From positions 1 to 57,004 of the forward strand of contig JAZSHT010000002.1 in the NCBI GenBank assembly GCA_045533435.1: a stretch of DNA of 57,004 nt. Reading direction: 5' to 3'. Under the pieces are notes generated by a model. The model was not told the DNA's origin. It ran no database searches and saw only the letters and a program-made list of their open reading frames with translations. Position 1 is the stretch's first letter, and every line of letters begins with the position of its first letter. Below, in pieces: positions 21,777-42,131 of this stretch. Both the position numbers and the translations under genes were made by a program. The stretch is from Eubacteriales bacterium (GTDB taxonomy: Bacteria > Bacillota > Clostridia > Oscillospirales > CAG-272).

Positions 21777-21864
21777 GCAGGGGTATCGAAGCGGTCATAA
21801 CGAGGCGGTCTTGAAAACCGTTTGGCCAAAAGCCACGAGGGTTCGAATCCCTCCCCCTGCGCCA
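21777..21864 (+). tRNA. tRNA-Ser (anticodon UGA), CCA encoded
   Basis: Acceptor GCAGGGG/CCCCTGC, anticodon loop cTTGAaa, long variable arm tggccaaaagcca, T-arm gagggTTCGAATccctc, discriminator G and CCA. Confidence 0.9.
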
Positions 21865-22217: not shown

Positions 22218-22451
22218 CTATACTAATGATAAATCTTTTCCATAAACGCATATGCTTAATTCACCGACATTAATATCTAATGCCATAAATATCCGTTTTA
22301 GCGTTGACCACTTTGGATCTGCATCACCGAGTTCAATGTTTTCTAGTCCTGTTATACTCGTATCACTTAACTCGGCAAGCTCCGCAACTGTCAAATGCTT
22401 ATACTCTCTTTTATCTCGTATAAATCTACCAATGTCACGATAAACTGTCAT
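22218..22451 (-). CDS. XRE-family HTH regulator (copy 1 of 3)
   Basis: HTH LTVAELAELSDTSITGLENIELGDADPKWSTLKRIF. Paralogues lie at 41892-42131 and, truncated, at 40153-40335. Confidence 0.8.
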   Translation of the reverse strand: MTVYRDIGRFIRDKREYKHLTVAELAELSDTSITGLENIELGDADPKWSTLKRIFMALDINVGELSICVYGKDLSLV

Positions 22452-23022: not shown

Positions 23023-23349
23023 ATGAAAAAGGTAATTTATTCTATCACAAATCTATCTAAAAAGGAGAGCGACAAGCTCACAGGAGTCGGCTTTATCACA
23101 GAGAGTGATTTGCTCATAGCTCGTTTGAGCAGAAAGGGCTCAGCATATATTAAGAATTTCGTTGATTGCATTAAGCATTGTTTCCCTGTTATGAACAAAA
23201 CTGATGAATTCAAAGGAGCTTATTCAGAGTTCGTTAAATTTGATGCTCCTGTAAAGGATGATAAACAAAGAAATCCAGAAGTTATCAGCTATGAAACAAT
23301 CGAAACACAAGTTCACTACACCATTTGGTTCAAGATAATAGAAGATTAA
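23023..23349 (+). CDS. Hypothetical protein (108 aa)
   Basis: RBS aggagg. First gene of a same-strand array of small genes. Confidence 0.5.
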   Translation: MKKVIYSITNLSKKESDKLTGVGFITESDLLIARLSRKGSAYIKNFVDCIKHCFPVMNKTDEFKGAYSEFVKFDAPVKDDKQRNPEVISYETIETQVHYTIWFKIIED

Positions 23350-23361
23350 GGAGGTGAAAAT

Positions 23362-23589
23362 ATGAATACTACTAATCAAAAATTTTATGATTTTCATAAT
23401 GGATATAACTTCGTAACATTCGGCTTAATTGAGCTGGATGTTGCGAATGAAAAAGCAATAGTTGCAATAAGTGATTTAGGCAAAATTATTGTAACTGACT
23501 ATTACCTACTTGAAGATAAAAATGGAGATTTGTATTTTGAGTATGGTGTAGATTATGAAAAAATATATATTAAAGATTTTGAAAATTAA
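23362..23589 (+). CDS. Hypothetical protein (75 aa)
   Basis: RBS aaggagg, tightly packed in the array. Confidence 0.45.
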   Translation: MNTTNQKFYDFHNGYNFVTFGLIELDVANEKAIVAISDLGKIIVTDYYLLEDKNGDLYFEYGVDYEKIYIKDFEN

Positions 23590-23602
23590 AGGAGATTTAA
23601 AA

Positions 23603-24241
23603 ATGAAAGTATTTGTATCAGGTTCTAAAAATGTATCGTCATTCGATAATGAAATATTAAAGGTTCTCAACAGAATCGTGGAAAACAATCACGAAATATT
23701 GGTTGGCGACTGTGATGGCGTTGATGCTTCAATTCAAAAGTATATGCAAGAAAAATCACATACTAATATTACTGTGTATTTTGTAGGCTCTGAACCAAAA
23801 AATGCACAAGAGCCATTTAAGCAAAGAAAGGTTGATACCCTCGGTAAATTGAGTCCTTATGAATATTATCAGCAAAAGGATATTCAAATGACACGAGATG
23901 CTGATGTTGGCTTCGTTATTTGGGATGAAGCAAGTAAAGGCTCAAGAGATAACATTCAAAGGCTTATTCAAATGGATAAACCAGTGGTAATTTATTCGAC
24001 TAAAAGAAATAAGCTGCTAAGAATGAAATCTAAATATTCTCCAAGCGAGGTATTTATGAATGTTCGTGAAACAGCAGGTGCAACAAAAAACATATACAAA
24101 GGCAGATTAAAGCCTGAATTTATCGGCTTTTTGACAGATAAGCAAATAGCTGATATTTGCGATAATTACGATAAAAATTTCGGTTACAATGTGAAAATAG
24201 ACCAAAATGGCTATTTTACTTGTGAAATATACGTAGATTGA
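23603..24241 (+). CDS. SLOG/DUF2493-like Rossmannoid protein (212 aa)
   Basis: MKVFVSGSK...ILVGDCDGVDASIQKY resembles the GxxGxD nucleotide-binding pattern of SLOG/DprA-like folds. Start set at the ATG after RBS aaaggag. Confidence 0.4.
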   Translation: MKVFVSGSKNVSSFDNEILKVLNRIVENNHEILVGDCDGVDASIQKYMQEKSHTNITVYFVGSEPKNAQEPFKQRKVDTLGKLSPYEYYQQKDIQMTRDADVGFVIWDEASKGSRDNIQRLIQMDKPVVIYSTKRNKLLRMKSKYSPSEVFMNVRETAGATKNIYKGRLKPEFIGFLTDKQIADICDNYDKNFGYNVKIDQNGYFTCEIYVD

Positions 24242-24255
24242 GAAAGGAGGGTAAT

Positions 24256-24486
24256 ATGCGAATATACAAAGGAACTAAAGAAGATAAAAGGGCTTTCGTA
24301 AAGGAAGTCCTTTTTGATTTATTAGTAATGACTAATTTCGGTTGGTATGGTGCTGAATATGAGGACATACCGAACAAGGGCGAATACATTTATCTTTTAG
24401 ATAAAGACGGTGTAAGATGCCAAAAAATTGATGTTACGGCAGATAGTATAACTGCTATTATTCAAGATGTATTTAAGAAAATTTAA
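24256..24486 (+). CDS. Hypothetical protein (76 aa)
   Basis: RBS gaaaggaggg, ATG at 24256. Confidence 0.45.
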   Translation: MRIYKGTKEDKRAFVKEVLFDLLVMTNFGWYGAEYEDIPNKGEYIYLLDKDGVRCQKIDVTADSITAIIQDVFKKI

Positions 24487-24498
24487 GGAGATTAAAAA

Positions 24499-25055
24499 AT
24501 GATTAGTACAGGAAATGTATCAATAGTTATAGGCTCTTGGGGTTCATATAACGAATGTAACGAAAGAGCTTTAGGTTCTGGCTTAACCTTGAAGATTACT
24601 CAGATTGGGATGAAATCTTAGAAGAACTTGAAAAACAAGGCTTTGAGCTTGACGGTATTGACGAAGAATTATTCATTCAAGACATAGAAGGAATACCGTC
24701 AAACAGCACAAATTGGGACTGCGTAAACCCACAAACACTTTTTGAAACCTTAAAGGAGTCAGAAATACTTGATAATTCATATAAATATGAGATATTTGAA
24801 GCTTATGTTGAAGTAAGAAGTTTTAGATGCTGGGAAGAACTTGTAGAAAAATACGGTTCTTCTTGGGCTGATGATATAAATCTTTACAAAAATATGGACT
24901 TTAAGGATTTAGCTTATCATATGATACACGAGGTTTGTTGTTACGAAATACCTGAATGGCTTGAAAATTATGTTGACTATGAAGCATATGGTCGTGATTT
25001 AAGCTTTGACGGTTACGAAGAATATTCAGGCGGAATTATAGAAATAGGGAGATAA
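24499..25055 (+). pseudogene. ardA: ArdA-like antirestriction protein, frameshifted near 24585-24595
   Basis: N-terminal frame gives IVIGSWGSYNECNERALGSG. A second frame continues LNLEDYSDWDEILEELEKQGFELDGIDEELFIQDIEG...WLENYVDYEAYGRDLSFDGY. Both are ArdA-typical. Confidence 0.65.
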
Positions 25056-25058
25056 AAA

Positions 25059-25349
25059 ATTACAATTAAAGAGCTATATAAAAACAATTTTGAAGATGCA
25101 GTTACTACACTCTGCTACGAGTCTGATTATTACATAACAAGCATTGAGATAATAAAAGACTTTATTAAGAAGCTGCTTGATGAAGATAATTTTACCTTTG
25201 CTGAACACTTAATAGTGGCTTTAAATAATACGGATGCTTACTACTATGATTATGACTTTTCATTAGGAACGTTTGAAACGCCAAAGCCACTTACAGAGCT
25301 TGAGAACTTAGAAGAATATTGCGATGATTACAAGGAGATACGACAATGA
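25059..25349 (+). CDS. Hypothetical 96-codon ORF with no ATG/GTG/TTG start (possible ATT start), in frame with and 3 nt after the ardA stop
   Basis: Open frame ITIKELYKNNFEDAV...EYCDDYKEIRQ. Its stop overlaps the next gene's ATG (caATGa), which suggests it is translated. Confidence 0.35.
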   Translation: MTIKELYKNNFEDAVTTLCYESDYYITSIEIIKDFIKKLLDEDNFTFAEHLIVALNNTDAYYYDYDFSLGTFETPKPLTELENLEEYCDDYKEIRQ

Positions 25350-25597
25350 AAAACACAAAACAGCTTTATGCTATTTTAACTGCCATTCAATGTATCAATC
25401 AAACAAACGGACACAGGGATGAAGATATTGCTAATTTGCTTAAATATGTATCTATTTATATCACAAATAGCAATTACAATATGCTTACTCTTACCTGTAT
25501 TAACAGAACCAAAGAAGAGATAATGCCGGAGCTTAATAAGTTGCTTGGCGCAGAAACAAAATATCTTGAATTCTTAGAAAGGATGAAAAAACGATGA
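25346..25597 (+). CDS. Hypothetical protein (83 aa)
   Basis: Overlapping start/stop coupling within the array. Confidence 0.45.
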   Translation: MKNTKQLYAILTAIQCINQTNGHRDEDIANLLKYVSIYITNSNYNMLTLTCINRTKEEIMPELNKLLGAETKYLEFLERMKKR

Positions 25598-25794
25598 CGC
25601 CGTACAAAGCAGATGCACACATTCATTCTCTTAATGGCGAGATAAAAGAAGTTAATGTTCTTGCCATTGACACAGAAAGCGAGTCTTGCCCGGTTTACAT
25701 AGTTGAATACAACGGAGTTAAATGTAAGGCTCGTTTCAACCCATTCGTTTGTATGCTCTATGCAGACGATAAATACGAAATTATAAAGGAGTAA
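25594..25794 (+). CDS. Hypothetical protein (66 aa)
   Basis: ATGA overlap with the previous gene. Confidence 0.45.
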   Translation: MTPYKADAHIHSLNGEIKEVNVLAIDTESESCPVYIVEYNGVKCKARFNPFVCMLYADDKYEIIKE

Positions 25795-25799
25795 ATGCT

Positions 25800-25958
25800 A
25801 TGGAAAACTTAACAATCGAGGATATGAACACGGCAATAAATGATTTCATTGACACATATTGGGGTACAGCCATTGGTGAAAGTATATATCACAAACGAGC
25901 AAACACCTCAGATGATGATTATGACGGACTTAAAGACATATATGAGGAAATACAATAA
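25800..25958 (+). CDS. Hypothetical small protein (52 aa)
   Basis: ATG at 25800. Its stop overlaps the next ATG (taATG). Not in the supplied track because it is under 60 aa. Confidence 0.35.
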   Translation: MENLTIEDMNTAINDFIDTYWGTAIGESIYHKRANTSDDDYDGLKDIYEEIQ

Positions 25959-26191
25959 TGAAGGATAACAAATACGGATACAAGCTATACAAGCAAAAGC
26001 AAAACGAAAAATACAAGCTTTTTAATTACTGCTATTCTTATGATTTTGTATTAAAAATAATTGAAATGTATAAAAGGAGAAAAATAATCGTTATTGGTGA
26101 AAACAAAGAAATAGCAAAAAACTCTAATTTCAAAATTATTCCCATAACTAAATATGAGGCTATGATGGCTGAAAAAGATGTTCCCTTCTGA
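25958..26191 (+). CDS. Hypothetical protein (77 aa)
   Basis: Translationally coupled within the array. Confidence 0.45.
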   Translation: MKDNKYGYKLYKQKQNEKYKLFNYCYSYDFVLKIIEMYKRRKIIVIGENKEIAKNSNFKIIPITKYEAMMAEKDVPF

Positions 26192-26245
26192 CACAATGTT
26201 GTGCAGATGGGCTTTTTTATTTATACAGATTGTGAGGTAAAATAA

Positions 26246-26416
26246 ATGAAATATATAACTCTTGAAGAACTAAAAGAAAAGGAAAAGCAGCTTATCGAGG
26301 AATATAACGAAAATATGGCGAAAAAATGGAATGTGTTCGCTGAGCATTCTCTTAAATGCCTTGAAGCTGTCAGATATGTAATAAAACTTATTGAAAATAA
26401 AGGAGAAAGACAATGA
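26246..26416 (+). CDS. Hypothetical small protein (56 aa)
   Basis: ATG at 26246. Its stop overlaps the next start (caATGa). Confidence 0.35.
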   Translation: MKYITLEELKEKEKQLIEEYNENMAKKWNVFAEHSLKCLEAVRYVIKLIENKGERQ

Positions 26417-27408
26417 GCAATATAGCTTTAAAAACAAAGACTAAGGAACACGAAATATTAAAAGCGTACCTTGAAGAAAATGCAAGTGATATTCTTGCCG
26501 AAAAAATAAATAACGGTGTTAAAATCCAAAAGGATGGTAAGACACTCATAAATAAAAAGACTCTTGAAACATTTATGTACTTTGCAACCGAAGAAGCTAA
26601 AAAATTGGCTGAAAAGGGTGCAAGAAGTGCTATGATTGAAGATAAGGTAGTGTTTGGTTGGTTAATACACTACTTTGAAGAGGATTCCATTGAAGGACTT
26701 TTATACAACGAGGACGGCAGCGAATATAAAAAGCCCGTTTCCGTTAGAAAGCCTACTCCTAAGCCGGAGGTTAAAATTGAAGCTAAACCACCTAAAAAGA
26801 AGATTGGTGAGGTTATTTCAATTTTTGAGGGCTTAGAGGATATATTCTCTACACCGAAGGACAATGATGGCTCTGATGATAACAATGACGATATAATTGA
26901 GGAAGAAGATCCTGAAATCGAAGAAGAGGTGGTTGAAGAGCCTGCCGAGAAAATTGAATTTAAACCACCTATTGAAGAAAAGCCAAAGCTCACCTTGTAC
27001 GATACATATATGGAAGTGCAAGGCAGATACCCCGACCACATTGTAATGAAGCGTATGGGCGATTTTTACGAGGTTTTTGGCGACAACGCTACTTTACTCG
27101 GTAACGAGTTAAATATGACAATAACCGCCCGAGAATTAGGTAATAATCATAGATTTGCTATGATTGACTTTCCTTTTCATTCCTTTGAGGCTTATGCCGG
27201 TAGAATACTAAAAAAATACTCTATCGTAATAATTGAAAACGGTAAAGAAACTGTAAGAAATAAAATAGAGCCTGTCAAACTTGAAAATGAAGGAATTGTA
27301 GTTGATAAAAAGACGGGTGAGGTAGTTGACGAGGAATTGCCATATAGCATTGAACACGTTGCTATCTTAGCAGAAATATTTGGTATTGAAAATTTGGAGG
27401 GCTGTTAA
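26413..27408 (+). CDS. PcfK/AcrIIA9-like N-terminal domain, acidic linker, MutS domain-I-like C-terminal domain
   Basis: N-terminal KEHEILKAYLEENASDILAEKI...WLIHYFEEDSIEG (PcfK-like pattern). C-terminal YMEVQGRYPDHIVMKRMGDFYEVFGDNATLLGNELNMTIT...FPFHSFEAYAGRILKKYSIVIIE matches the MutS mismatch-binding domain, including Phe-X-Glu. Confidence 0.6.
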   Translation: MSNIALKTKTKEHEILKAYLEENASDILAEKINNGVKIQKDGKTLINKKTLETFMYFATEEAKKLAEKGARSAMIEDKVVFGWLIHYFEEDSIEGLLYNEDGSEYKKPVSVRKPTPKPEVKIEAKPPKKKIGEVISIFEGLEDIFSTPKDNDGSDDNNDDIIEEEDPEIEEEVVEEPAEKIEFKPPIEEKPKLTLYDTYMEVQGRYPDHIVMKRMGDFYEVFGDNATLLGNELNMTITARELGNNHRFAMIDFPFHSFEAYAGRILKKYSIVIIENGKETVRNKIEPVKLENEGIVVDKKTGEVVDEELPYSIEHVAILAEIFGIENLEGC

Positions 27409-27409
27409 A

Positions 27410-28735
27410 ATGAAAATTGAAAAGATTAAGCCTATCCCTAAATATATATTAAAGCTCATTAAAAAGACGGATTTGGAAAGCTATAAGGCTCAAAACGGCT
27501 TTACAAGATACTATTCCTATCTTACTAAAAATGACGGTGAGCTTGTGCAGGTCATAGTTGCAGTAAAAAACAGATATACAAAATGGCTTTGTAAACAGGT
27601 TGTTGTTCACTCTATGAACTCAAAGGATTGCTTTGTAAAGGACATAGCGTTATTTTGGATAGGCGGATATACAACAAATTGGCATCCTGAAGGATATGGA
27701 CGTGAGGTTTGGTATGCTGACGGTGAATGGGGAAAAGCTGATGATAGATATTTCCACATTTGGTGTCCTTGCGTAAACAAAGAATACGTTGAAAAATTCC
27801 CTAAATACAAATACTGTGCATATAAAGAATATCCATATAACGACTTCTTTAAATACCTAACGGTATATGATAAATTTCCACAAGCAGAATATTTAGTGAA
27901 AATGGGCTTGCCCGGAAGAGCCATGAGCATTATGCTTTTAAGACAATGCAAAAAGGACAAGTCCTTCTGCAAGTGGTTATTTAAAAATCGTACTAAAATA
28001 AAATACGGTGGTTACTATGTAACTGCTATTCTCTTGGCTTACAAAAATGGTTGGGAATTAAGTAGAGCTCAATCCTATGAGGCTGCAAGAAAAAGACTCA
28101 TTCACGAGGAAGACTATCAGCCTGTAAGAGATATGCTTAAAAAGCGAGGTGATTATGAGAAATTTATCAAATATATAGAAAGCAACAAAATATCTTACAG
28201 AAGCTATTTTGACTATATTGAAGCCTGCAATCATCTTAACATTGATATGAATATCGACAAAAACAGATATCCTCACGATTTTAAGGTATGGCACGATATA
28301 CGCATAAACGAATATGCAAGTGCTAAGGCAAAAGCTGATGCTATTTTAAGAAAAGAATTTAATGCCAAATTCAAAACAATATCTAAAAAATATGAGTCTT
28401 TACAGGAAAACTGCAAAGGCTCATTTCTTTGTATTATAGCCAAAAGTCCTAACGAGCTTGTTAAAGAAGGAAACGCCTTGAACCATTGTGTAGGAAAAAG
28501 AGGATATGACAAAAAATTCGTTGATGAAGAAACACTTATCTTCTTTGTTCGTAATAAGGAAAATCCTAAAGTACCGCTTGTTACCATTGAATATTCTTTA
28601 TCAAGAAAGCAAGTGCTACAATGCTATGCTTATCACAATTCTGCTCCATCAAAGGAAATAACCGATTATGTTTACAACGAATGGCTGCCACACGCCAACA
28701 AGCAATTAAAGAAAATATTAAAATCTGCTGCGTAA
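27410..28735 (+). CDS. PcfJ-like protein
   Basis: C-terminal EGNALNHCVGKRGYDKKFVDEETLIFFVRNKENPKVPLVTIEY is the PcfJ-family hallmark. Adjacent to a PcfK-like gene as in conjugative elements. Confidence 0.65.
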   Translation: MKIEKIKPIPKYILKLIKKTDLESYKAQNGFTRYYSYLTKNDGELVQVIVAVKNRYTKWLCKQVVVHSMNSKDCFVKDIALFWIGGYTTNWHPEGYGREVWYADGEWGKADDRYFHIWCPCVNKEYVEKFPKYKYCAYKEYPYNDFFKYLTVYDKFPQAEYLVKMGLPGRAMSIMLLRQCKKDKSFCKWLFKNRTKIKYGGYYVTAILLAYKNGWELSRAQSYEAARKRLIHEEDYQPVRDMLKKRGDYEKFIKYIESNKISYRSYFDYIEACNHLNIDMNIDKNRYPHDFKVWHDIRINEYASAKAKADAILRKEFNAKFKTISKKYESLQENCKGSFLCIIAKSPNELVKEGNALNHCVGKRGYDKKFVDEETLIFFVRNKENPKVPLVTIEYSLSRKQVLQCYAYHNSAPSKEITDYVYNEWLPHANKQLKKILKSAA

Positions 28736-28748
28736 AGGGGGTGAATAT

Positions 28749-28931
28749 ATGATAATTGAAGTTACTTTCTATACCAAAAAGCAATTAAAAGCATATTTGA
28801 AAGAAAAGCAATATGACTTTGATAGCACAGAGAAATTTCACAAATGGTTATTTGAGTTTTTTGAAAACGGAAATACGATAACCGTTTTAGGCGAAGAAAT
28901 TGATTATCAATACTGTACTGAACTTATTTAA
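28749..28931 (+). CDS. Hypothetical protein (60 aa)
   Basis: ORF following a ggggg RBS-like tract. Confidence 0.35.
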   Translation: MIIEVTFYTKKQLKAYLKEKQYDFDSTEKFHKWLFEFFENGNTITVLGEEIDYQYCTELI

Positions 28932-28944
28932 AAGGAGAAACAAA

Positions 28945-29256
28945 ATGAAAACTTATTACAGAATTACAGCTTATCACAAGGAAAAGGATTTTACTGTTAT
29001 ACTTGACACTTACCAAATGTTTGATCAACTATGGGAATTTAGCGCCCTGCTCGTTGAAAAGGGATTTAAAATATTAGAGGTCGGAAGGCCTGCTAAATTC
29101 GGTGAGGGTAATACGCCTATAACTGATAAATATCCTAAAAAGTTTGTAGTCAGAGCTACGCAAGACGGAAAGCCTGATTACAAATATGTAAATGATAATG
29201 GCGATGCCAAAAAAGCGGTTTGCGTTAATTTCAGATACTACATTCCTCAAAAGTAA
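28945..29256 (+). CDS. Hypothetical protein (103 aa)
   Basis: RBS aaaggag, then ATG at 28945 (MKTYYRITAY). Confidence 0.45.
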   Translation: MKTYYRITAYHKEKDFTVILDTYQMFDQLWEFSALLVEKGFKILEVGRPAKFGEGNTPITDKYPKKFVVRATQDGKPDYKYVNDNGDAKKAVCVNFRYYIPQK

Positions 29257-38234: not shown

Positions 38235-40043
38235 TCAATAGCAATGGTTTTCAACAAGACATTTCAACTCATCTTTTATCGATATTCTCTGTGTAAACAA
38301 ATACGTATATGCCTTACCTATTGCACCATAAAACAAATGACATTTGGGACATTTAGACTTATCTTTACCAAATGATAAAATATGTGAATTGGCTATATCT
38401 GTATATGGATCAATATAGTATATATGTTTAATACCTAATTGGTAAGCTTTTTTGGAACACAAAACACACGAGCTTGCCGAAGTAAATAAGTTTCCTCCTA
38501 ATATGCCTTCTCCACCATATTTTACTATTTGTAAAAATGCATTTTCTTCAGCGTGCAGAGAACGAGTGTGAACTTGATTTTTTTGTTTTGTCAGTTCACC
38601 GTACTCATCTTTAAAACAGTATGCACACAAACGACCATCTAAGCTTTTTTCCACATCTTCCTTTGCATCTGATATTTTTTTATATTTTTTCTTCATATGT
38701 TTACAAAAATCCAAGTCTTCTATTTCAAAAGTACTAAAGGTATCTTCATCTTTGTTTAAAAGATAATTGTTAACAGATCGCAAATTGCACGGAACTTGTC
38801 CCTCCGCAACACTATTCCAACCAATTGCTTTCACGCTATAATATTTATCTGTAATAACTGCACCCACCTGTCTTGACAAACACCCTGAATTTAATTTTGC
38901 ATTATATGCTATCTGCATACATCTTTCCACATTCGTGGGAGTTACTAATCCTGGATGCTTTATTAGCGTTACATATTTGACAACTTGTTCAGTTATAAAA
39001 TACTTTTCTGTATTTGCTTTTGGATTGTATAAATATATATCTGCCAATTGTGCACAAGCCTCAATATTTTGATTTGTGAACATTTCATGCTGCTCTTTGA
39101 CTTTTCCTGGATATTCTGTATCATCAATCGCTCTTATCTGTTGATTATCATAATTTTCTGCCAATCTTCTTTTTCTTTCTTCATTATCAGTGCTTACTGC
39201 GACAAGAAAAAATGAAGCGTATCTATCTTGAAAATATGTTGCTTCATAAGGATTCCTAATAGCATCCACACATATAAATGTGGGTTGGTTTTTTGTCTTT
39301 TGCACATATCTAATTGCTTTAATAAATCCGTTAGCCCTCTTGGCTATTTCAAACATATGTTTTCCTGTAAAATCTTTGCTTTCTGAAATATCTCCGTGAT
39401 GTCTTATTCTATTTCCTATAGTTTGCAAACAATATGTATACGCATTCACTTTACCACTTTTTTGTGCTAAATTAATAGAGATATTTTGCATCACCTCTCT
39501 AAATTTCATTTGAACACTTGACAATTTAAATAATAATTCGTACTCCATGTTCAATTTATTAAAATCGTATCTATCTAAATTGCCTTTTTCATCAATGCAA
39601 TCTATAATCTTTTGATTTAAGTAATCAAATTCTTCTTTAACAGATGTATTTTTTTCTAAAAGTTTCCGTTGTATTTTTTCAACCACCTCTTTATCAAAGA
39701 TTTTTTCCAACTCAGACATAAATTCATCATAAGTTTTTTGTGCTATAAATGAGAAAATAACATCCGTCATACTGATTCTAAAAAATGAATTCCAGTGTTT
39801 TTTAGCATAGTTATATATAATTTGATACTTTCTCTCTTCTGCATTTTGAAACCCTGTCGACTTAGGCTCATGCAAATTTAAATCTGCAAATTTTTCTTTT
39901 GATAATATGTTAGAAATCGTAGAACACCCTGAACCGGTTCTTCCGGTTAAACCTATGATTACAAATTGTTCTCTTTCTCCATAAATAGTCTTTATTGCTT
40001 GCTCGCATCCTAAAATTTCTTCAACTTGATTTGTCTCACTCAT
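38235..40043 (-). CDS. AvcD/DcdV-like defence protein: N-terminal P-loop kinase-like domain plus C-terminal dCMP/dCTP deaminase domain
   Basis: Walker-A-like GLTGRTGSGCST. Zinc deaminase motifs SLHAEENAF and SSCVLCSKKAY...IYYIDPY. Size and architecture match known dCTP-deaminase antiphage proteins. Confidence 0.7.
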   Translation of the reverse strand: MSETNQVEEILGCEQAIKTIYGEREQFVIIGLTGRTGSGCSTISNILSKEKFADLNLHEPKSTGFQNAEERKYQIIYNYAKKHWNSFFRISMTDVIFSFIAQKTYDEFMSELEKIFDKEVVEKIQRKLLEKNTSVKEEFDYLNQKIIDCIDEKGNLDRYDFNKLNMEYELLFKLSSVQMKFREVMQNISINLAQKSGKVNAYTYCLQTIGNRIRHHGDISESKDFTGKHMFEIAKRANGFIKAIRYVQKTKNQPTFICVDAIRNPYEATYFQDRYASFFLVAVSTDNEERKRRLAENYDNQQIRAIDDTEYPGKVKEQHEMFTNQNIEACAQLADIYLYNPKANTEKYFITEQVVKYVTLIKHPGLVTPTNVERCMQIAYNAKLNSGCLSRQVGAVITDKYYSVKAIGWNSVAEGQVPCNLRSVNNYLLNKDEDTFSTFEIEDLDFCKHMKKKYKKISDAKEDVEKSLDGRLCAYCFKDEYGELTKQKNQVHTRSLHAEENAFLQIVKYGGEGILGGNLFTSASSCVLCSKKAYQLGIKHIYYIDPYTDIANSHILSFGKDKSKCPKCHLFYGAIGKAYTYLFTQRISIKDELKCLVENHCY

Positions 40044-40152: not shown

Positions 40153-40335
40153 TTATCTTATTGATTGTAACGTTTTTCCGTAAACACATTTACTTAACTC
40201 ACCGACGTCAATATTTAATGCTTTAAATATTCGTTGCAGGGTTGACCACTTGGGGTTTGCGTCGCCAAACTCTATGTTTTCAAGCCCTGTAACACTTATA
40301 TCACATAGTTCTGTTAATTTAGCAAAGTAAAGCAT
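40153..40335 (-). pseudogene. 5'-truncated XRE HTH gene (copy 2 of 3)
   Basis: High nucleotide identity to 41892-42131 but lacks the first 20 or so codons. Confidence 0.6.
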
Positions 40336-40357: not shown

Positions 40358-41476
40358 CTATTTTGTTGTTATAAATTCTTTTGGATAGTGGCATAGATTC
40401 TCATTATTCCATAATTTTTCAAAATAGCGGGTAAACAAATTAAATCCTTTACCTCCTTTGGTGAATTTAATGGTTATTGTTTGTTGGCTCACAATATCGT
40501 ACATATATGGACCGATATATAGGTCATCATCCATTCTCCAATAAAAATCCAATGTCATAGCATTATAATATTTAATCTCTATTTTGCCTTTTTCAGATTG
40601 ACTATTTAATTTATTAACCCATGCTACAAGTTTTATAATGGAATCACTTATACTATCAGGATGAACATTTTCTTCAATAGCTCGTTGCTTAGCAAATTCA
40701 CTATTTGGATTCATAACAAGTAGCCTCATTTTCATTCCGTTTTGTAAACATTGTAAAACATCATTTTCACGAGAACTTCTAAAAGAACTAAGTCCAAAGG
40801 CGATCCCGTCGATTTTTTTTACATTATGTTCTTCTAATCTTGGATCTGATTCAGCATTTTTTTCCGCTCTGGTTTTAAATATTTTTTCTATTCCCCAAGA
40901 ATTAAATCCGTCGATTTTCCTTATAAAATTAGAATCTATACCAGAACAATTTAATTCAGTTCCTTTAATCCATCCAGCATAAGGCGTATTATTTATTAAT
41001 TCTTGAATAGAGGTTTTAATTTTTGATATCAACCCTCCAATATCTGTCCAAAAAGCAACTTGCATATTGCTATCTAAAATTCTTCGTTTGAATTGTTCAA
41101 GCCTTTTTCGACCTTTCTGTGTTTTTTCTACCTTTTCAACAGGTAAAAGATTATAATCTTTATACATAAAAACAACTATTGGTTTTTTTATACTCAATGC
41201 AAAATTATATTCCTTTTCAGTAAATGAAATTTTCTTATCATTGGTACTACTCTCATTAGTTAAAGAGCCGTACCTTCCAGCTATGACAAGCAAATAGAAA
41301 TCACTTTCTATAATATCTTGTTGAATTATCTCCCATGATTTTTTGTTTGCAGCAGGAAACAACTCCATTCCAGCAGGAATGCACTTACTTTCAAGTAAAG
41401 CTTGCATTATAGCTTGTCTCTCGGTCTCAAGATCCTTTTGAGTTGAACTTACAAAAACTTGATACTTTTTATTCAT
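40358..41476 (-). CDS. DUF4062 (TIR/SLOG-like) N-terminal domain fused to a PLD-fold-like C-terminal domain without an HKD motif
   Basis: N-terminal YQVFVSSTQKDLETERQAIMQALLESKCIPAGMELFPA...DFYLLVIAGRYGS fits the DUF4062 pattern. C-terminal MRLLVMNPNS...IEIKYYNAMTLDFYWRMDDDLYIGPY...LFTRYFEKLW is DUF5919/PLD-like. No HxKxxxxD. Confidence 0.5.
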   Translation of the reverse strand: MNKKYQVFVSSTQKDLETERQAIMQALLESKCIPAGMELFPAANKKSWEIIQQDIIESDFYLLVIAGRYGSLTNESSTNDKKISFTEKEYNFALSIKKPIVVFMYKDYNLLPVEKVEKTQKGRKRLEQFKRRILDSNMQVAFWTDIGGLISKIKTSIQELINNTPYAGWIKGTELNCSGIDSNFIRKIDGFNSWGIEKIFKTRAEKNAESDPRLEEHNVKKIDGIAFGLSSFRSSRENDVLQCLQNGMKMRLLVMNPNSEFAKQRAIEENVHPDSISDSIIKLVAWVNKLNSQSEKGKIEIKYYNAMTLDFYWRMDDDLYIGPYMYDIVSQQTITIKFTKGGKGFNLFTRYFEKLWNNENLCHYPKEFITTK

Positions 41477-41891: not shown

Positions 41892-42131
41892 CTACGTTTT
41901 AACTGATGTAAATGTTTTTCCGTAAACACATTTGCTTAGCTCGCCGACATCAACATTTAATGCTTTAAATATTCGTTGCAGGGTTGTCCACTTAGGGTTT
42001 GCGTCGCCGAGCTCTATGTTTTCAAGTCCTGTAACGCTTATGTCGCTTAATTCTGCTAATTTAGCGACAGTAAGGTGTTTTCTTTCTCTTTTATCTCGTA
42101 TAAATCTGCCAACATCATAATAAATTGTCAT
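41892..42131 (-). CDS. XRE-family HTH regulator (copy 3 of 3)
   Basis: 79 aa. Near-identical HTH to copies 1 and 2, and the 5' leader is also similar to that of copy 1. Confidence 0.8.
   Translation of the reverse strand: MTIYYDVGRFIRDKRERKHLTVAKLAELSDISVTGLENIELGDANPKWTTLQRIFKALNVDVGELSKCVYGKTFTSVKT

What the first reader, a model, noticed from the sequence alone, without database searches (positions are those of the whole stretch)
26413..27408. PcfK/AcrIIA9-like domain fused to a stand-alone MutS mismatch-binding domain
Residues 1-100 or so follow the PcfK-like pattern. A 90-aa linker rich in Glu, Asp and Pro follows. Residues 196-285 or so read LYDTYMEVQGRYPDHIVMKRMGDFYEVFGDNATLLGNELNMTITAR...FPFHSFEAYAGRILKKYSIVIIE. 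That is MutS domain I, including the Phe-X-Glu (F-Y-E) mismatch-contact motif, but with no connector, clamp or ATPase domains. A mobile-element protein carrying only the mismatch reader could mask heteroduplex or mismatches from host MutS, lowering the MMR barrier to integration. It could also act as a decoy. I am not aware of a characterised example.
Basis: partly seen in the sequence, partly recalled or inferred. Interest (0 to 1): 0.62.

Follow-up and report, generated by a model that had tools for sequence, protein, structure and literature searches.

The report
PcfK-like protein carrying MutS mismatch-reader domain
A mobile-element gene in a gut Clostridia genome encodes a small non-enzymatic protein that carries only the mismatch-sensing domain of the repair protein MutS inside a PcfK-like scaffold; the design is common and untested, and may let the element read or hide irregular DNA from host repair.

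Summary
ORF 26413-27408 (+) encodes 331 aa. It has a PcfK-like N-domain (1-106), an 87-aa disordered linker, and MutS domain I (194-282; Pfam E=1.1e-17; all of the top 50 Foldseek PDB hits are MutS/MSH). The Phe218-x-Glu220 motif is intact, and no other MutS domain is present.

New here:
- ~200-aa relatives share the N-domain, linker motif and C-terminal helix but lack MutS-I, so MutS-I is an insert in an existing scaffold.
- The linker holds a conserved peptide. In most relatives it is Q-Φ-S-Φ-F, the sliding-clamp-binding consensus. In this copy it is degenerate (VISIF) and followed by a second motif, LEDIF.
- F-x-E is kept in at least 98% of 210 family domains. dN/dS is 0.17-0.28.
- The gene is translationally coupled to PcfJ, in a ~6-kb cassette of small genes beside defence and toxin cargo.
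- 17 of 46 well-flanked related loci also carry a convergent rolling-circle Rep plus Zot-like ATPase arm. No T4SS or relaxase was seen.
- The full architecture is absent from 72,556 plasmids.

Masking or decoy function against mismatch repair is plausible but untested. MutS-I in mobile-element "polyvalent proteins" is already described (Iyer 2017), so this is a new variant of a known kind.

The parts
26413..27408 (+). Whole gene, 331 aa (P0001): PcfK-like scaffold with inserted MutS domain I
   Evidence: dN/dS is 0.17-0.28 against 83-86% identical homologues.
26413..26730 (+). N-domain, residues 1-106, borderline PcfK Pfam match. It is the most conserved part of the family (invariant W83, H86-Y87-F88).
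   Evidence: AlphaFold2 gives pLDDT 87.8 and pTM 0.78. No structural neighbour in PDB or BFVD (best E 0.7-2.6).
26731..26808 (+). Basic Lys/Pro-rich first part of the linker, residues 107-132 (pI 10.5), predicted disordered
26809..26844 (+). Conserved linear motif, residues 133-144, VISIFEGLEDIF. It aligns with Q-Φ-[ST]-Φ-F-[DE] of most relatives, which is the clamp-binding-type pentapeptide. This copy lacks the Gln and has a second [DE]D[IL]F motif.
   Evidence: S136 and F138 are invariant or nearly invariant. 337 of 367 members have the motif, with Q at position 1 in about 64%. The second motif occurs in 84 of 105 members without Q and 0 of 231 with Q. Clamp-motif consensus from bioRxiv 10.64898/2026.05.27.728225.
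26845..26991 (+). Acidic, disordered linker, residues 145-193
26992..27258 (+). MutS domain I, residues 194-282
27064..27072 (+). Phe218-Tyr219-Glu220, the mismatch-contact motif, equivalent to E. coli MutS F36/E38
   Evidence: F is present in 204 of 208 and E in 208 of 208 family domains with a residue at those columns.
27166..27168 (+). Asp252, where 198 of 210 family domains and E. coli MutS (G70) have Gly. Private substitution of this copy.
27259..27405 (+). C-terminal region, residues 283-331, with 'VDKKTGEVV' and the helix 'SIEHVAILAEIFG'. Also present in short forms lacking MutS-I. It is the most constrained segment (dN/dS 0.03-0.07).
27410..28735 (+). PcfJ-like gene. Its ATG lies 1 nt after the stop of the PcfK-like gene, with a GGAGG ribosome-binding site inside that gene's 3' end.
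   Evidence: Pfam PcfJ E=3.9e-28. It is the immediate downstream neighbour in 69 of 84 loci. Sequence.
23023..29256 (+). Same-strand cassette of small genes to which the gene belongs. It includes a frameshifted ArdA, a SLOG-like protein, the PcfK-MutS-I gene, PcfJ and a conserved ~104-118-aa protein.
22218..22451 (-). XRE-family HTH gene, divergent from the cassette, probably its repressor. The same arrangement occurs in L008.

Best explanation
Shown: this is an intact gene under purifying selection for a non-catalytic modular protein. A PcfK-like scaffold consists of a folded N-domain, a disordered linker with a clamp-binding-type peptide, an acidic stretch and a conserved C-terminal helix. 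A single MutS mismatch-binding domain, with its Phe-x-Glu wedge preserved, was inserted into that scaffold once. The gene is co-translated with PcfJ. It sits in a repressor-controlled cassette of small genes, including ArdA, at one arm of an integrated mobile element of gut Clostridia.

Inferred: after the element enters or is induced, the MutS-I module docks on distorted DNA of the element itself, such as mismatches, bulged hairpins or ss/ds junctions in ssDNA or rolling-circle intermediates. The linker peptide holds the protein at sliding clamps left on that DNA. Host MutS in Firmicutes uses the same two contacts (domain I and a QLSFF-type clamp motif). A protein with both contacts but no ATPase or MutL-activating parts would occupy those sites without triggering repair. 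That would locally shield the element from MutS/MutL processing. PcfJ and the C-terminal helix are probably the partner and partner-docking site.
For: - Domain identity.
- F-x-E is kept in at least 98% of 210 family domains, together with R240, M250, P254 and H256, which align with E. coli R58, M68, P72 and H74.
- Purifying selection: omega is 0.17-0.28 overall and 0.14-0.35 for MutS-I.
- Insert architecture.
- One origin of the insert is compatible with the tree. All 84 family domains lie on one side of a branch, with SH-aLRT 75-85.
- Linker motif: 337 of 367 members have it. The majority form Q-[IML]-S-[ML]-F equals the clamp-binding consensus Qφx LF / QL[SD]LF. B. subtilis MutS uses QLSFF and E. 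coli MutS uses QMSLL.
- An unrelated polyvalent protein on a Chroococcidiopsis plasmid has its only QLSLF 43 residues after its MutS-I domain.
- The host has canonical MutS (861 aa) and MutL (685 aa).
- Context: coupling to PcfJ in 69 of 84 loci, ArdA in 34 loci, and an HUH Rep arm in 17 of 46 well-flanked loci, which implies ssDNA intermediates.
- Patchy distribution: 3 of 25 same-genus species and 0 of 16 other genera of the order.
Against: - There is no experiment on any member, and no test here of DNA binding, clamp binding or an effect on mismatch repair.
- This copy's motif, VISIF, lacks Gln1 and has Ile at position 4. Positions 1, 4 and 5 are the ones reported as most important for clamp binding, so clamp docking is doubtful for this protein itself.
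- This copy has Asp at a nearly invariant Gly (G252D). Its neighbouring ArdA is frameshifted and the island lacks the Rep arm, so this particular locus may be partly decayed.
- Why an element that integrates by site-specific recombination would need to evade mismatch repair is unclear.
- Whether an isolated domain I binds mismatches well without the MutS dimer and clamp domains is not established (my recollection, not checked here).
- The tree rests on 89 columns and has moderate support only.
Confidence: 0.4

Rival explanations
1. The protein is a protective coat for the element's incoming or replicating strand, as Iyer et al. proposed for MutS-I and ArdC-N in polyvalent proteins. MutS-I recognises short unpaired or irregular stretches. 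The acidic tail and N-domain fend off nucleases or restriction enzymes. Host mismatch repair is not the target.
For: Iyer 2017 makes this proposal for mobile-element MutS-I. The gene shares a cassette with ArdA. The linker is strongly acidic and could mimic DNA. Related loci carry an HUH Rep arm, which implies ssDNA forms.
Against: This reading does not explain why the exact mismatch-wedge residues F-x-E are kept in at least 98% of members. It also does not explain the clamp-type peptide. The short forms lacking MutS-I keep everything else, so the scaffold's main job does not need MutS-I.
Confidence: 0.22
2. The protein is a replication accessory. It recognises imperfect hairpins at the element's single-strand origin and recruits or retains the host sliding clamp and polymerase, promoting complementary-strand synthesis.
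For: The family carries a clamp-type motif. A rolling-circle Rep of the G2P type occurs in 37% of well-flanked loci and in MT835493.1. MutS-I binds bulged or mismatched DNA in MutS, as summarised.
Against: The window's island has no Rep gene, yet the gene is under purifying selection. Sixty-three per cent of well-flanked loci show no Rep within 10 kb. No origin-like structure was identified.
Confidence: 0.13
3. The protein is an AcrIIA9-type anti-CRISPR. The PcfK-like part inhibits Cas9, and MutS-I is an accessory DNA anchor.
For: AcrIIA9 carries the Pfam PcfK domain (PMC6739104). It is reported to block Cas9 DNA binding and cleavage, as summarised in bioRxiv 10.64898/2026.08.04.741601. The gene sits in a cassette that resembles anti-defence cassettes.
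Against: The PcfK match is borderline: 28.5 against 27 bits, covering 45 of 139 profile positions. No Cas9 was found in the host MAG, which is 81% complete. AcrIIA8, reported to come from functional assays of metagenomic libraries (the approach that, as I recall, also yielded AcrIIA9), failed to inhibit SpyCas9 biochemically (PMC13239955, abstract), so that class of assignment is not secure. No direct comparison with the AcrIIA9 sequence was possible.
Confidence: 0.08
4. In this genome the gene is a leftover of a decayed element with no current role.
For: ArdA is frameshifted. The copy has G252D at a near-invariant Gly and a clamp-type motif without Gln. No integrase, Rep or att repeat was found in the ~22-kb island.
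Against: The reading frame is intact and the ribosome-binding site and coupling are preserved. dN/dS is 0.17-0.28 against close homologues. The 'frameshift' could be an assembly error in a MAG. The motif without Gln, with its compensating second motif, is shared by a whole subclade.
Confidence: 0.1

Closest known systems
MutS-I domains of 'polyvalent proteins' of conjugative elements and phages (Iyer, Burroughs, Anand, de Souza, Aravind 2017, PMC5512222)
   Same: MutS domain I is detached from the rest of MutS, encoded by mobile DNA of Firmicutes and Bacteroidetes, and non-catalytic. GDFYE is retained in the two examples checked here. One of them is also followed by QLSLF.
   Different: Polyvalent proteins are giant multi-effector polypeptides; the two checked here are 825 and 2256-2266 aa. 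About 80% pair MutS-I with ArdC-N. This protein has 331 aa, no ArdC-N and no enzymatic domain. Its MutS-I is inserted in a PcfK-like scaffold and the gene is always followed by PcfJ. In the tree the two polyvalent MutS-I domains fall outside the family clade.
PcfK-like proteins / AcrIIA9 (Pfam PF14058)
   Same: The N-domain reaches the Pfam threshold. An acidic tail follows it. The gene neighbours a PcfJ-like gene, and the carriers are mobile elements of gut bacteria.
   Different: The Pfam match is marginal and partial. This protein has the MutS-I insert. AcrIIA9 homologues are described as predominantly in Bacteroidetes, whereas this family is in Clostridia. Cas9 inhibition was not tested and no Cas9 was found in the host.
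Bacterial MutS (N-terminal domain I plus C-terminal clamp-binding motif)
   Same: Same fold and the same Phe-x-Glu, Arg, Met and Pro-x-His positions. It is 41% identical to the host's own MutS domain I. The family also carries a Q-x-S-Φ-F peptide resembling QLSFF of B. subtilis MutS and QMSLL of E. coli MutS.
   Different: There are no connector, core, clamp, ATPase or dimerisation domains. It scores 67 bits against the Pfam MutS_I model, whereas canonical MutS of the phylum scores 143-176 bits. It cannot signal to MutL the way MutS does.
ArdC-N, the ssDNA-binding anti-restriction domain
   Same: It is a non-catalytic DNA-binding module that mobile elements are thought to use on their own transferred strand. 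Iyer et al. propose that it works comparably to MutS-I.
   Different: The fold is unrelated, and ArdC-N is not present in this protein or cassette.

Membership tests
MutS domain I (Pfam PF01624) | Sequence match above Pfam's gathering score | tested here: met
   64.7 bits against 20.6, E=1.1e-17, profile positions 5-90 of 113
MutS domain I (Pfam PF01624) | MutS domain I fold | tested here: met
   AlphaFold2 pLDDT of about 90 for residues 194-282. The top 50 Foldseek PDB hits are all MutS/MSH; the best is 1ewq_B at E=5.2e-7.
MutS domain I (Pfam PF01624) | Phe-x-Glu mismatch-contact motif | tested here: met
   F218/E220 align with E. coli F36/E38. They are conserved in 204 of 208 and 208 of 208 family domains.
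MutS domain I (Pfam PF01624) | Preferential binding to mismatched or looped DNA | not testable with these tools
   Needs EMSA or fluorescence polarisation with purified protein
MutS mismatch-repair protein (full length) | Connector, core/lever, clamp and ABC ATPase domains | tested here: not met
   NCBIfam MutS equivalog scores 62 bits against a cut-off of 480, and only positions 5-98 of 793 are matched. No other Pfam domain was found.
PcfK-like / AcrIIA9 family (PF14058) | Sequence match above Pfam's gathering score | tested here: met
   Marginal: 28.5 bits against 27, with only profile positions 29-73 of 139 matched
PcfK-like / AcrIIA9 family (PF14058) | Adjacent PcfJ-like gene | tested here: met
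   PcfJ at E=3.9e-28, 1 nt downstream. It is the +1 neighbour in 69 of 84 loci.
PcfK-like / AcrIIA9 family (PF14058) | Inhibition of Cas9 | not testable with these tools
   No Cas9 (TIGR01865) was found in the 81%-complete host MAG.
Polyvalent proteins (Iyer et al. 2017) | Multi-domain polypeptide (2 to 15 domains per the paper's abstract) combining distinct conflict domains. MutS-I co-occurs with ArdC-N in about 80% of cases. | tested here: not met
   Only two recognisable domains, with no ArdC-N, peptidase, methylase or helicase
Sliding-clamp (DnaN) clients with a pentapeptide clamp-binding motif | Q-φ-x-L-F (QL[SD]LF) peptide in a disordered segment | tested here: inconclusive
   The family majority is Q-[IML]-S-[ML]-F in the disordered linker. 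This copy reads VISIF followed by LEDIF, lacking Gln1 and Leu4, which are reported as important.
Sliding-clamp (DnaN) clients with a pentapeptide clamp-binding motif | Physical binding to the clamp | not testable with these tools
   Needs peptide fluorescence polarisation or ITC, or a complex prediction.

The most novel reading that the evidence does not exclude
The PcfK-like family as a whole is a class of mobile-element proteins that dock on the host sliding clamp through a linker pentapeptide. The MutS-I-bearing branch would be a dedicated antagonist of the clamp-dependent MutS/MutL repair pathway of Firmicutes. It would copy MutS's two targeting contacts, the mismatch wedge and the clamp motif, without its signalling parts. 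In doing so it would mask irregular DNA of ssDNA or rolling-circle elements. That would make it the first natural mismatch-repair inhibitor encoded by a mobile element.
Probability: 0.2. Interest if true: 0.8.

Novelty: new variant of a known kind. Interest (0 to 1): 0.55.

Why it matters
Mismatch repair is a main barrier to recombination between diverged DNA and a guardian of replication fidelity. A widespread mobile-element protein built from MutS's mismatch reader plus a clamp-docking peptide would be a natural tool for switching that barrier off locally.

The family is large. At least 556 loci were found among GTDB species representatives, and there are more than 7,500 sequence clusters, almost all from uncultured gut Clostridia.

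It would also give PcfK/AcrIIA9-type proteins, now labelled only as anti-CRISPRs or unknowns, a testable general activity: clamp docking.

Practically, a small portable mismatch- or loop-binding module, or a mismatch-repair inhibitor, could be useful for recombineering and mutagenesis in Gram-positive bacteria.

The context analysis also points to an undescribed type of integrated element in gut Clostridia. One arm is an anti-defence-like cassette, the middle holds defence cargo, and the other arm carries an HUH-Rep and a Zot-like ATPase.

Tried and rejected
- **N-domain fold.** A confident model (pLDDT 87.8) found no significant neighbour in the PDB or BFVD, so the fold gives no functional clue.
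- **PcfJ.** No relative with a solved structure and no NCBIfam match.
- **att sites.** No copy of the tRNA-Ser 3' end lies elsewhere in the window. The 160-258-nt 'repeats' at 22.2, 40.2 and 41.9 kb are three paralogous XRE HTH genes, not att sites.
- **Empty-site comparison in relatives.** The dnaA-to-FGGY-kinase distance and orientation vary among same-genus genomes (0.4 to 60 kb), so no clean empty site could be defined.
- **Conjugative-element reading.** No T4SS, coupling-protein or relaxase Pfam hit was found among conserved neighbours of 84 loci. No full-length homologue was found in 72,556 plasmids. The reading is not supported.
- **Cluster-18 ATPase.** The attempt to link this 700-aa TM+P-loop ATPase to the Zot-like cluster 39 by hhalign was inconclusive (probability 2.8%).
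- **Transcription evidence.** Only DNA runs or runs of unknown type hold the sequence, so no reads were laid.
- **Rfam.** Only the tRNA was found.
- **Source lineage of the insert.** The tree is too short (89 columns) to name it. The nearest leaves by path are MutS of the same phylum, including the host's, but the nominal sister (a polyvalent domain plus Taq) is not credible.
Full report
**1. The observation**

The ORF lies exactly at 26413-27408 (+) and encodes 331 aa. An AGGAG ribosome-binding site sits 9 nt upstream. The ATG overlaps the stop codon of the preceding 56-aa ORF (ATGA). The next gene starts 1 nt after the stop, with a GGAGG site inside the 3' end of this gene.

Pfam gives MutS_I at E=1.1e-17, 64.7 bits against a cut-off of 20.6, residues 197-281. 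It gives PcfK at E=1.9e-6, 28.5 against 27 bits, residues 45-94. PHROGs gives two families of unknown function over the same two parts.

phmmer against the PDB aligns residues 194-280 with domain I of Taq, Neisseria and E. coli MutS (E=2.8e-10 to 4e-7). In the residue-by-residue alignment, RMGDFYEVF lies on E. coli RMGDFYELF. This gives the following correspondences:
- F218 = F36
- E220 = E38
- R240 = R58
- M250 = M68
- P254 = P72
- H256 = H74

An AlphaFold2 model built from 82 homologues has pLDDT of about 90 for both folded parts and below 50 for residues 111-185. The first 50 Foldseek hits in the PDB are all MutS/MSH chains, aligned over 80-130 columns.

NCBIfam's full-length MutS models match only their first ~98 positions and score far below cut-off. 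There is therefore no connector, clamp or ATPase domain.

The linker (107-193) has 26 Asp+Glu and 12 Pro in 87 residues, but its first 26 residues are basic.

**2. Anatomy of the family**

The protein belongs to a very large, unnamed family:
- 7,573 clusters at E≤1e-3 among proteins of 182-579 aa, nearly all carrying both Pfam domains.
- In the 50%-identity library, 623 representatives at E≤1e-10 and 206 at E≤1e-30.
- At least 556 loci among one-genome-per-species GTDB contigs, almost all uncultured gut Clostridia such as Christensenellaceae and 'Eubacteriales'.

Alignments show five conserved elements:
- the N-domain (1-106), which is the best-conserved part;
- a short peptide at 133-138, with S136 and F138 invariant or nearly invariant;
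- MutS-I;
- a 'VDxxTGE[IV]' segment;
- a C-terminal amphipathic helix ('ΦDxxxΦAxLxEΦFG').

A search with the first 140 residues found 2,473 shorter proteins (~200 aa) that are 63-80% identical in the N-domain. Aligned with the long forms, they have the same peptide, acidic stretch, TGE[IV] segment and C-terminal helix but no MutS-I. MutS-I is therefore an insert in a pre-existing PcfK-like scaffold, not a terminal fusion. Some members carry a further ~70-aa insert or two tandem MutS-I domains.

In a tree of 84 non-redundant family domains, 31 canonical MutS domains of the phylum, 3 PDB MutS domains and 2 polyvalent-protein domains, all family domains lie on one side of a branch (SH-aLRT 75-85). 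This is compatible with one capture. The tree has only 89 columns, and the donor lineage cannot be named.

The domain is 41% identical to the host's own MutS domain I. It scores 67 bits on the Pfam model, whereas canonical MutS of the phylum scores 143-176 bits. The capture is therefore old.

**3. Is the mismatch reader kept?**

In 210 family MutS-I domains, counting those with a residue at the column, the Phe is present in 204 of 208 and the Glu in 208 of 208. The Gly-Asp before them and the Arg, Met, Pro and His positions listed above are kept in over 90%.

Against homologues that are 83-86% identical, dN/dS is as follows:
- whole gene: 0.17-0.28
- MutS-I: 0.14-0.35
- last 49 residues: 0.03-0.07

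The gene is under purifying selection, and the wedge residues are what selection preserves.

One oddity of this copy is Asp252 where 198 of 210 domains, and E. coli MutS, have Gly.

**4. The linker peptide**

Within the otherwise unconserved disordered linker, 337 of 367 family members have x-x-[ST]-[MLIF]-F-[DE]. Gln occupies position 1 in about 64%, for example QMSMFD, QISMFD, QLSLFD and QFSLFD.

This matches the published sliding-clamp-binding pentapeptide Qφx LF / QL[SD]LF. [quoted passage not shown] MutS itself carries QLSFF in B. subtilis and QMSLL in E. coli (bioRxiv 10.1101/2020.07.13.200147).

The window's protein reads VISIF, with no Gln and with Ile at position 4, and is followed by LEDIF. 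Across the family, the second [DEN][DE][ILMV][FY] motif occurs in 84 of 105 members without Gln and in 0 of 231 with Gln. This is probably one subclade, so it is not independent evidence. It does suggest that a second anchor compensates for the lost Gln.

An unrelated polyvalent protein on a Chroococcidiopsis plasmid (annotated as 'strawberry notch C-terminal domain-containing', ORF 2266 aa) has its only QLSLF 43 residues after its MutS-I domain. The chance of such a motif occurring anywhere in that protein is 2.7% by shuffling.

Clamp docking is therefore a reasonable inference for the family. It is unproven, and doubtful for this particular copy.

**5. Context in the window**

The window is chromosomal and lies at the replication origin region. 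On the minus strand are recA, gyrA, gyrB, recF, dnaN and dnaA (8.6-21 kb). tRNA-Ser follows at 21777-21864. Ordinary metabolic genes resume from about 44.8 kb.

Between these lies a ~22-kb island containing:
- an XRE repressor gene (-) at 22218-22451;
- the same-strand cassette at 23023-29256;
- a RelB-MGMT-like DNA-binding gene (-);
- a 2,013-aa RHS toxin;
- an anti-phage dCTP-deaminase-like gene (NF041025, E=2e-102, but 343.3 bits, below the model's curated cut-off of 400);
- a DUF4062 gene.

No integrase, Rep or att repeat was found in the island. ArdA in the cassette is split by a frameshift. This could be genuine decay or an assembly error, since the genome is a 186-contig MAG that is 81% complete.

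The host has canonical MutS and MutL next to each other on another contig. No Cas9 was found.

The N-domain protein occurs in only 3 of 25 same-genus species and in none of 16 other genera of the order. In an even sample of 80 good genomes of the phylum, no other genome had a second, short MutS-I ORF. The gene is horizontally acquired.

**6. Context in relatives**

I clustered the ORFs of 84 loci (window, 6 metagenome loci and 77 GTDB loci). The gene always sits in a same-strand run of 8-14 small genes:
- PcfJ is the +1 neighbour in 69 of 84 loci. Most of the remainder are contigs that end there.
- A ~104-aa protein is the +2 neighbour in 52 loci.
- ArdA is present in 34 loci.
- Several unknown small proteins recur upstream.

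No T4SS, coupling-protein or relaxase family appears among the conserved neighbours. Downstream lies variable cargo rich in defence and toxin genes: Dnd/Ssp-type phosphorothioation, TIR/ThsB, HNH, RHS and methylases.

In 17 of 46 loci with at least 6 kb downstream, a convergent module follows. It contains an HUH Rep of the REP_ORF2-G2P family (PF23343, E=5.5e-11), a Zot-like or 700-aa TM+P-loop ATPase (phrog_197, E=3.7e-8), and large secreted or membrane proteins. The same three-part layout is seen in MT835493.1, an unverified 57-kb 'Bacteriophage sp.' gut contig. That contig is the only full-architecture hit in the phage collection.

There is no full-length hit in 72,556 plasmids. Thirty-two of 84 contigs end within 3 kb downstream of the gene, as expected at a strain-variable junction.

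The host MAG has a Rep fragment followed by a serine recombinase on a separate 6.9-kb contig, not linked to the window.

The carrier is best described as an integrated element with rolling-circle, possibly inovirus-like, features. It is not a classical conjugative element. In this window only the cassette and cargo are present.

**7. Mechanism**

Shown: the protein is non-catalytic, modular and under selection. It retains MutS's mismatch wedge, is co-expressed with PcfJ, and sits in a repressor-flanked cassette with an anti-restriction gene.

Inferred: it binds irregular DNA of the element and, in most family members, the sliding clamp. Firmicute MutS is targeted through the same two contacts. 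A protein with both contacts but no ATPase would occupy these sites without activating MutL. I rate this masking model at about 0.4.

The rivals are:
- ssDNA or irregular-DNA protection unrelated to mismatch repair, which is the Iyer et al. proposal (0.22);
- a replication accessory at single-strand origins (0.13);
- an AcrIIA9-type anti-CRISPR (0.08);
- a decaying remnant in this genome (0.1).

**8. Comparison with the known, and novelty**

MutS-I outside MutS was described for polyvalent proteins (PMC5512222). That paper called it the only such instance and does not mention PcfK.

AcrIIA9 carries the PcfK Pfam domain (PMC6739104). The match here is marginal.

The PcfK-scaffold/MutS-I insert with the PcfJ partner, the conserved clamp-type peptide and the element architecture are not in the searched literature.

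Earlier notes of this scan reached the same domain reading in other genomes. They supplied the lead to Iyer et al. and to the clamp motif, both of which I checked here.

Verdict: a real feature and a new variant of a known kind. It is moderately interesting, and more so if the clamp and mismatch-repair connection holds.

Noticed in passing
window 24499-25055 (+): ArdA is split by a frameshift. The N-terminal 40 aa are in one frame and the remaining ~156 aa in another; the latter are 67% identical to intact ArdA of relatives. This is either a pseudogene or a MAG assembly error.
   Followed up: partly
window 22218-22451, 40153-40335, 41892-42131 (all -): There are three paralogous XRE-family HTH genes, 72-88% identical at DNA level over 160-258 nt. 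They sit at the left edge, inside, and at the right edge of the island. They first looked like direct repeats or att sites.
   Followed up: partly
window 38235-40043 (-) and 40358-41476 (-): A 602-aa gene resembles the anti-phage dCTP deaminase (AvcD type): NF041025 E=2e-102, but 343.3 bits against the curated cut-off of 400, plus a Pfam dCMP_cyt_deam_1 match. It lies next to a DUF4062 protein. This is defence cargo within the same island.
   Followed up: no
window 30446-36487 (+), with small ORFs to 37623: A 2,013-aa RHS/YD-repeat toxin is followed by several ~95-100-aa ORFs that are candidate immunity genes.
   Followed up: no
window 29315-29878 (-); also L008 12906-13469: A 187-aa fusion of a RelB/DinJ antitoxin domain with an MGMT-type DNA-binding domain lies convergent to the cassette. 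It is conserved next to the cassette in the closest NCBI relative.
   Followed up: no
L015, L016, L019, L021, L025, L033, L035, L038 and others; L090 (MT835493.1) 30727-38367; own genome contig C181 2-2313: A convergent arm is found in 17 of 46 well-flanked loci. It holds an HUH Rep (PF23343 REP_ORF2-G2P), a Zot-like or 700-aa TM+P-loop ATPase, and large secreted or membrane proteins. This suggests an undescribed rolling-circle or inovirus-like integrated element carrying defence cargo between two arms. In the host MAG, a Rep fragment plus a serine recombinase sit on an unlinked 6.9-kb contig.
   Followed up: partly
L093 (NZ_CP097482.1, WP_250017822.1; ORF read here as 2266 aa) residues ~1998-2132; L092 (OY726012.1) 825-aa ORF: Polyvalent-type proteins with MutS-I keep GDFYE. 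The cyanobacterial one has its only QLSLF clamp-type motif 43 residues after MutS-I. The Bacteroidales one has QVSLL at residue 22.
   Followed up: partly
window 26809-26844 and family alignment: Loss of Gln in the clamp-type motif and gain of a second [DE]D[IL]F motif three residues downstream are perfectly complementary across the family: 84 of 105 without Q against 0 of 231 with Q.
   Followed up: yes
window 23555-24241 (+): A 228-aa protein in the cassette matches phrog_289. Relatives carry a YpsA/SLOG-family protein (PF06908) in the equivalent cassette.
   Followed up: no
84 related loci: Thirty-two contigs end within 3 kb downstream of the gene, at the cassette/cargo junction. This suggests strain-level variability or multiple copies that break assemblies there.
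   Followed up: no
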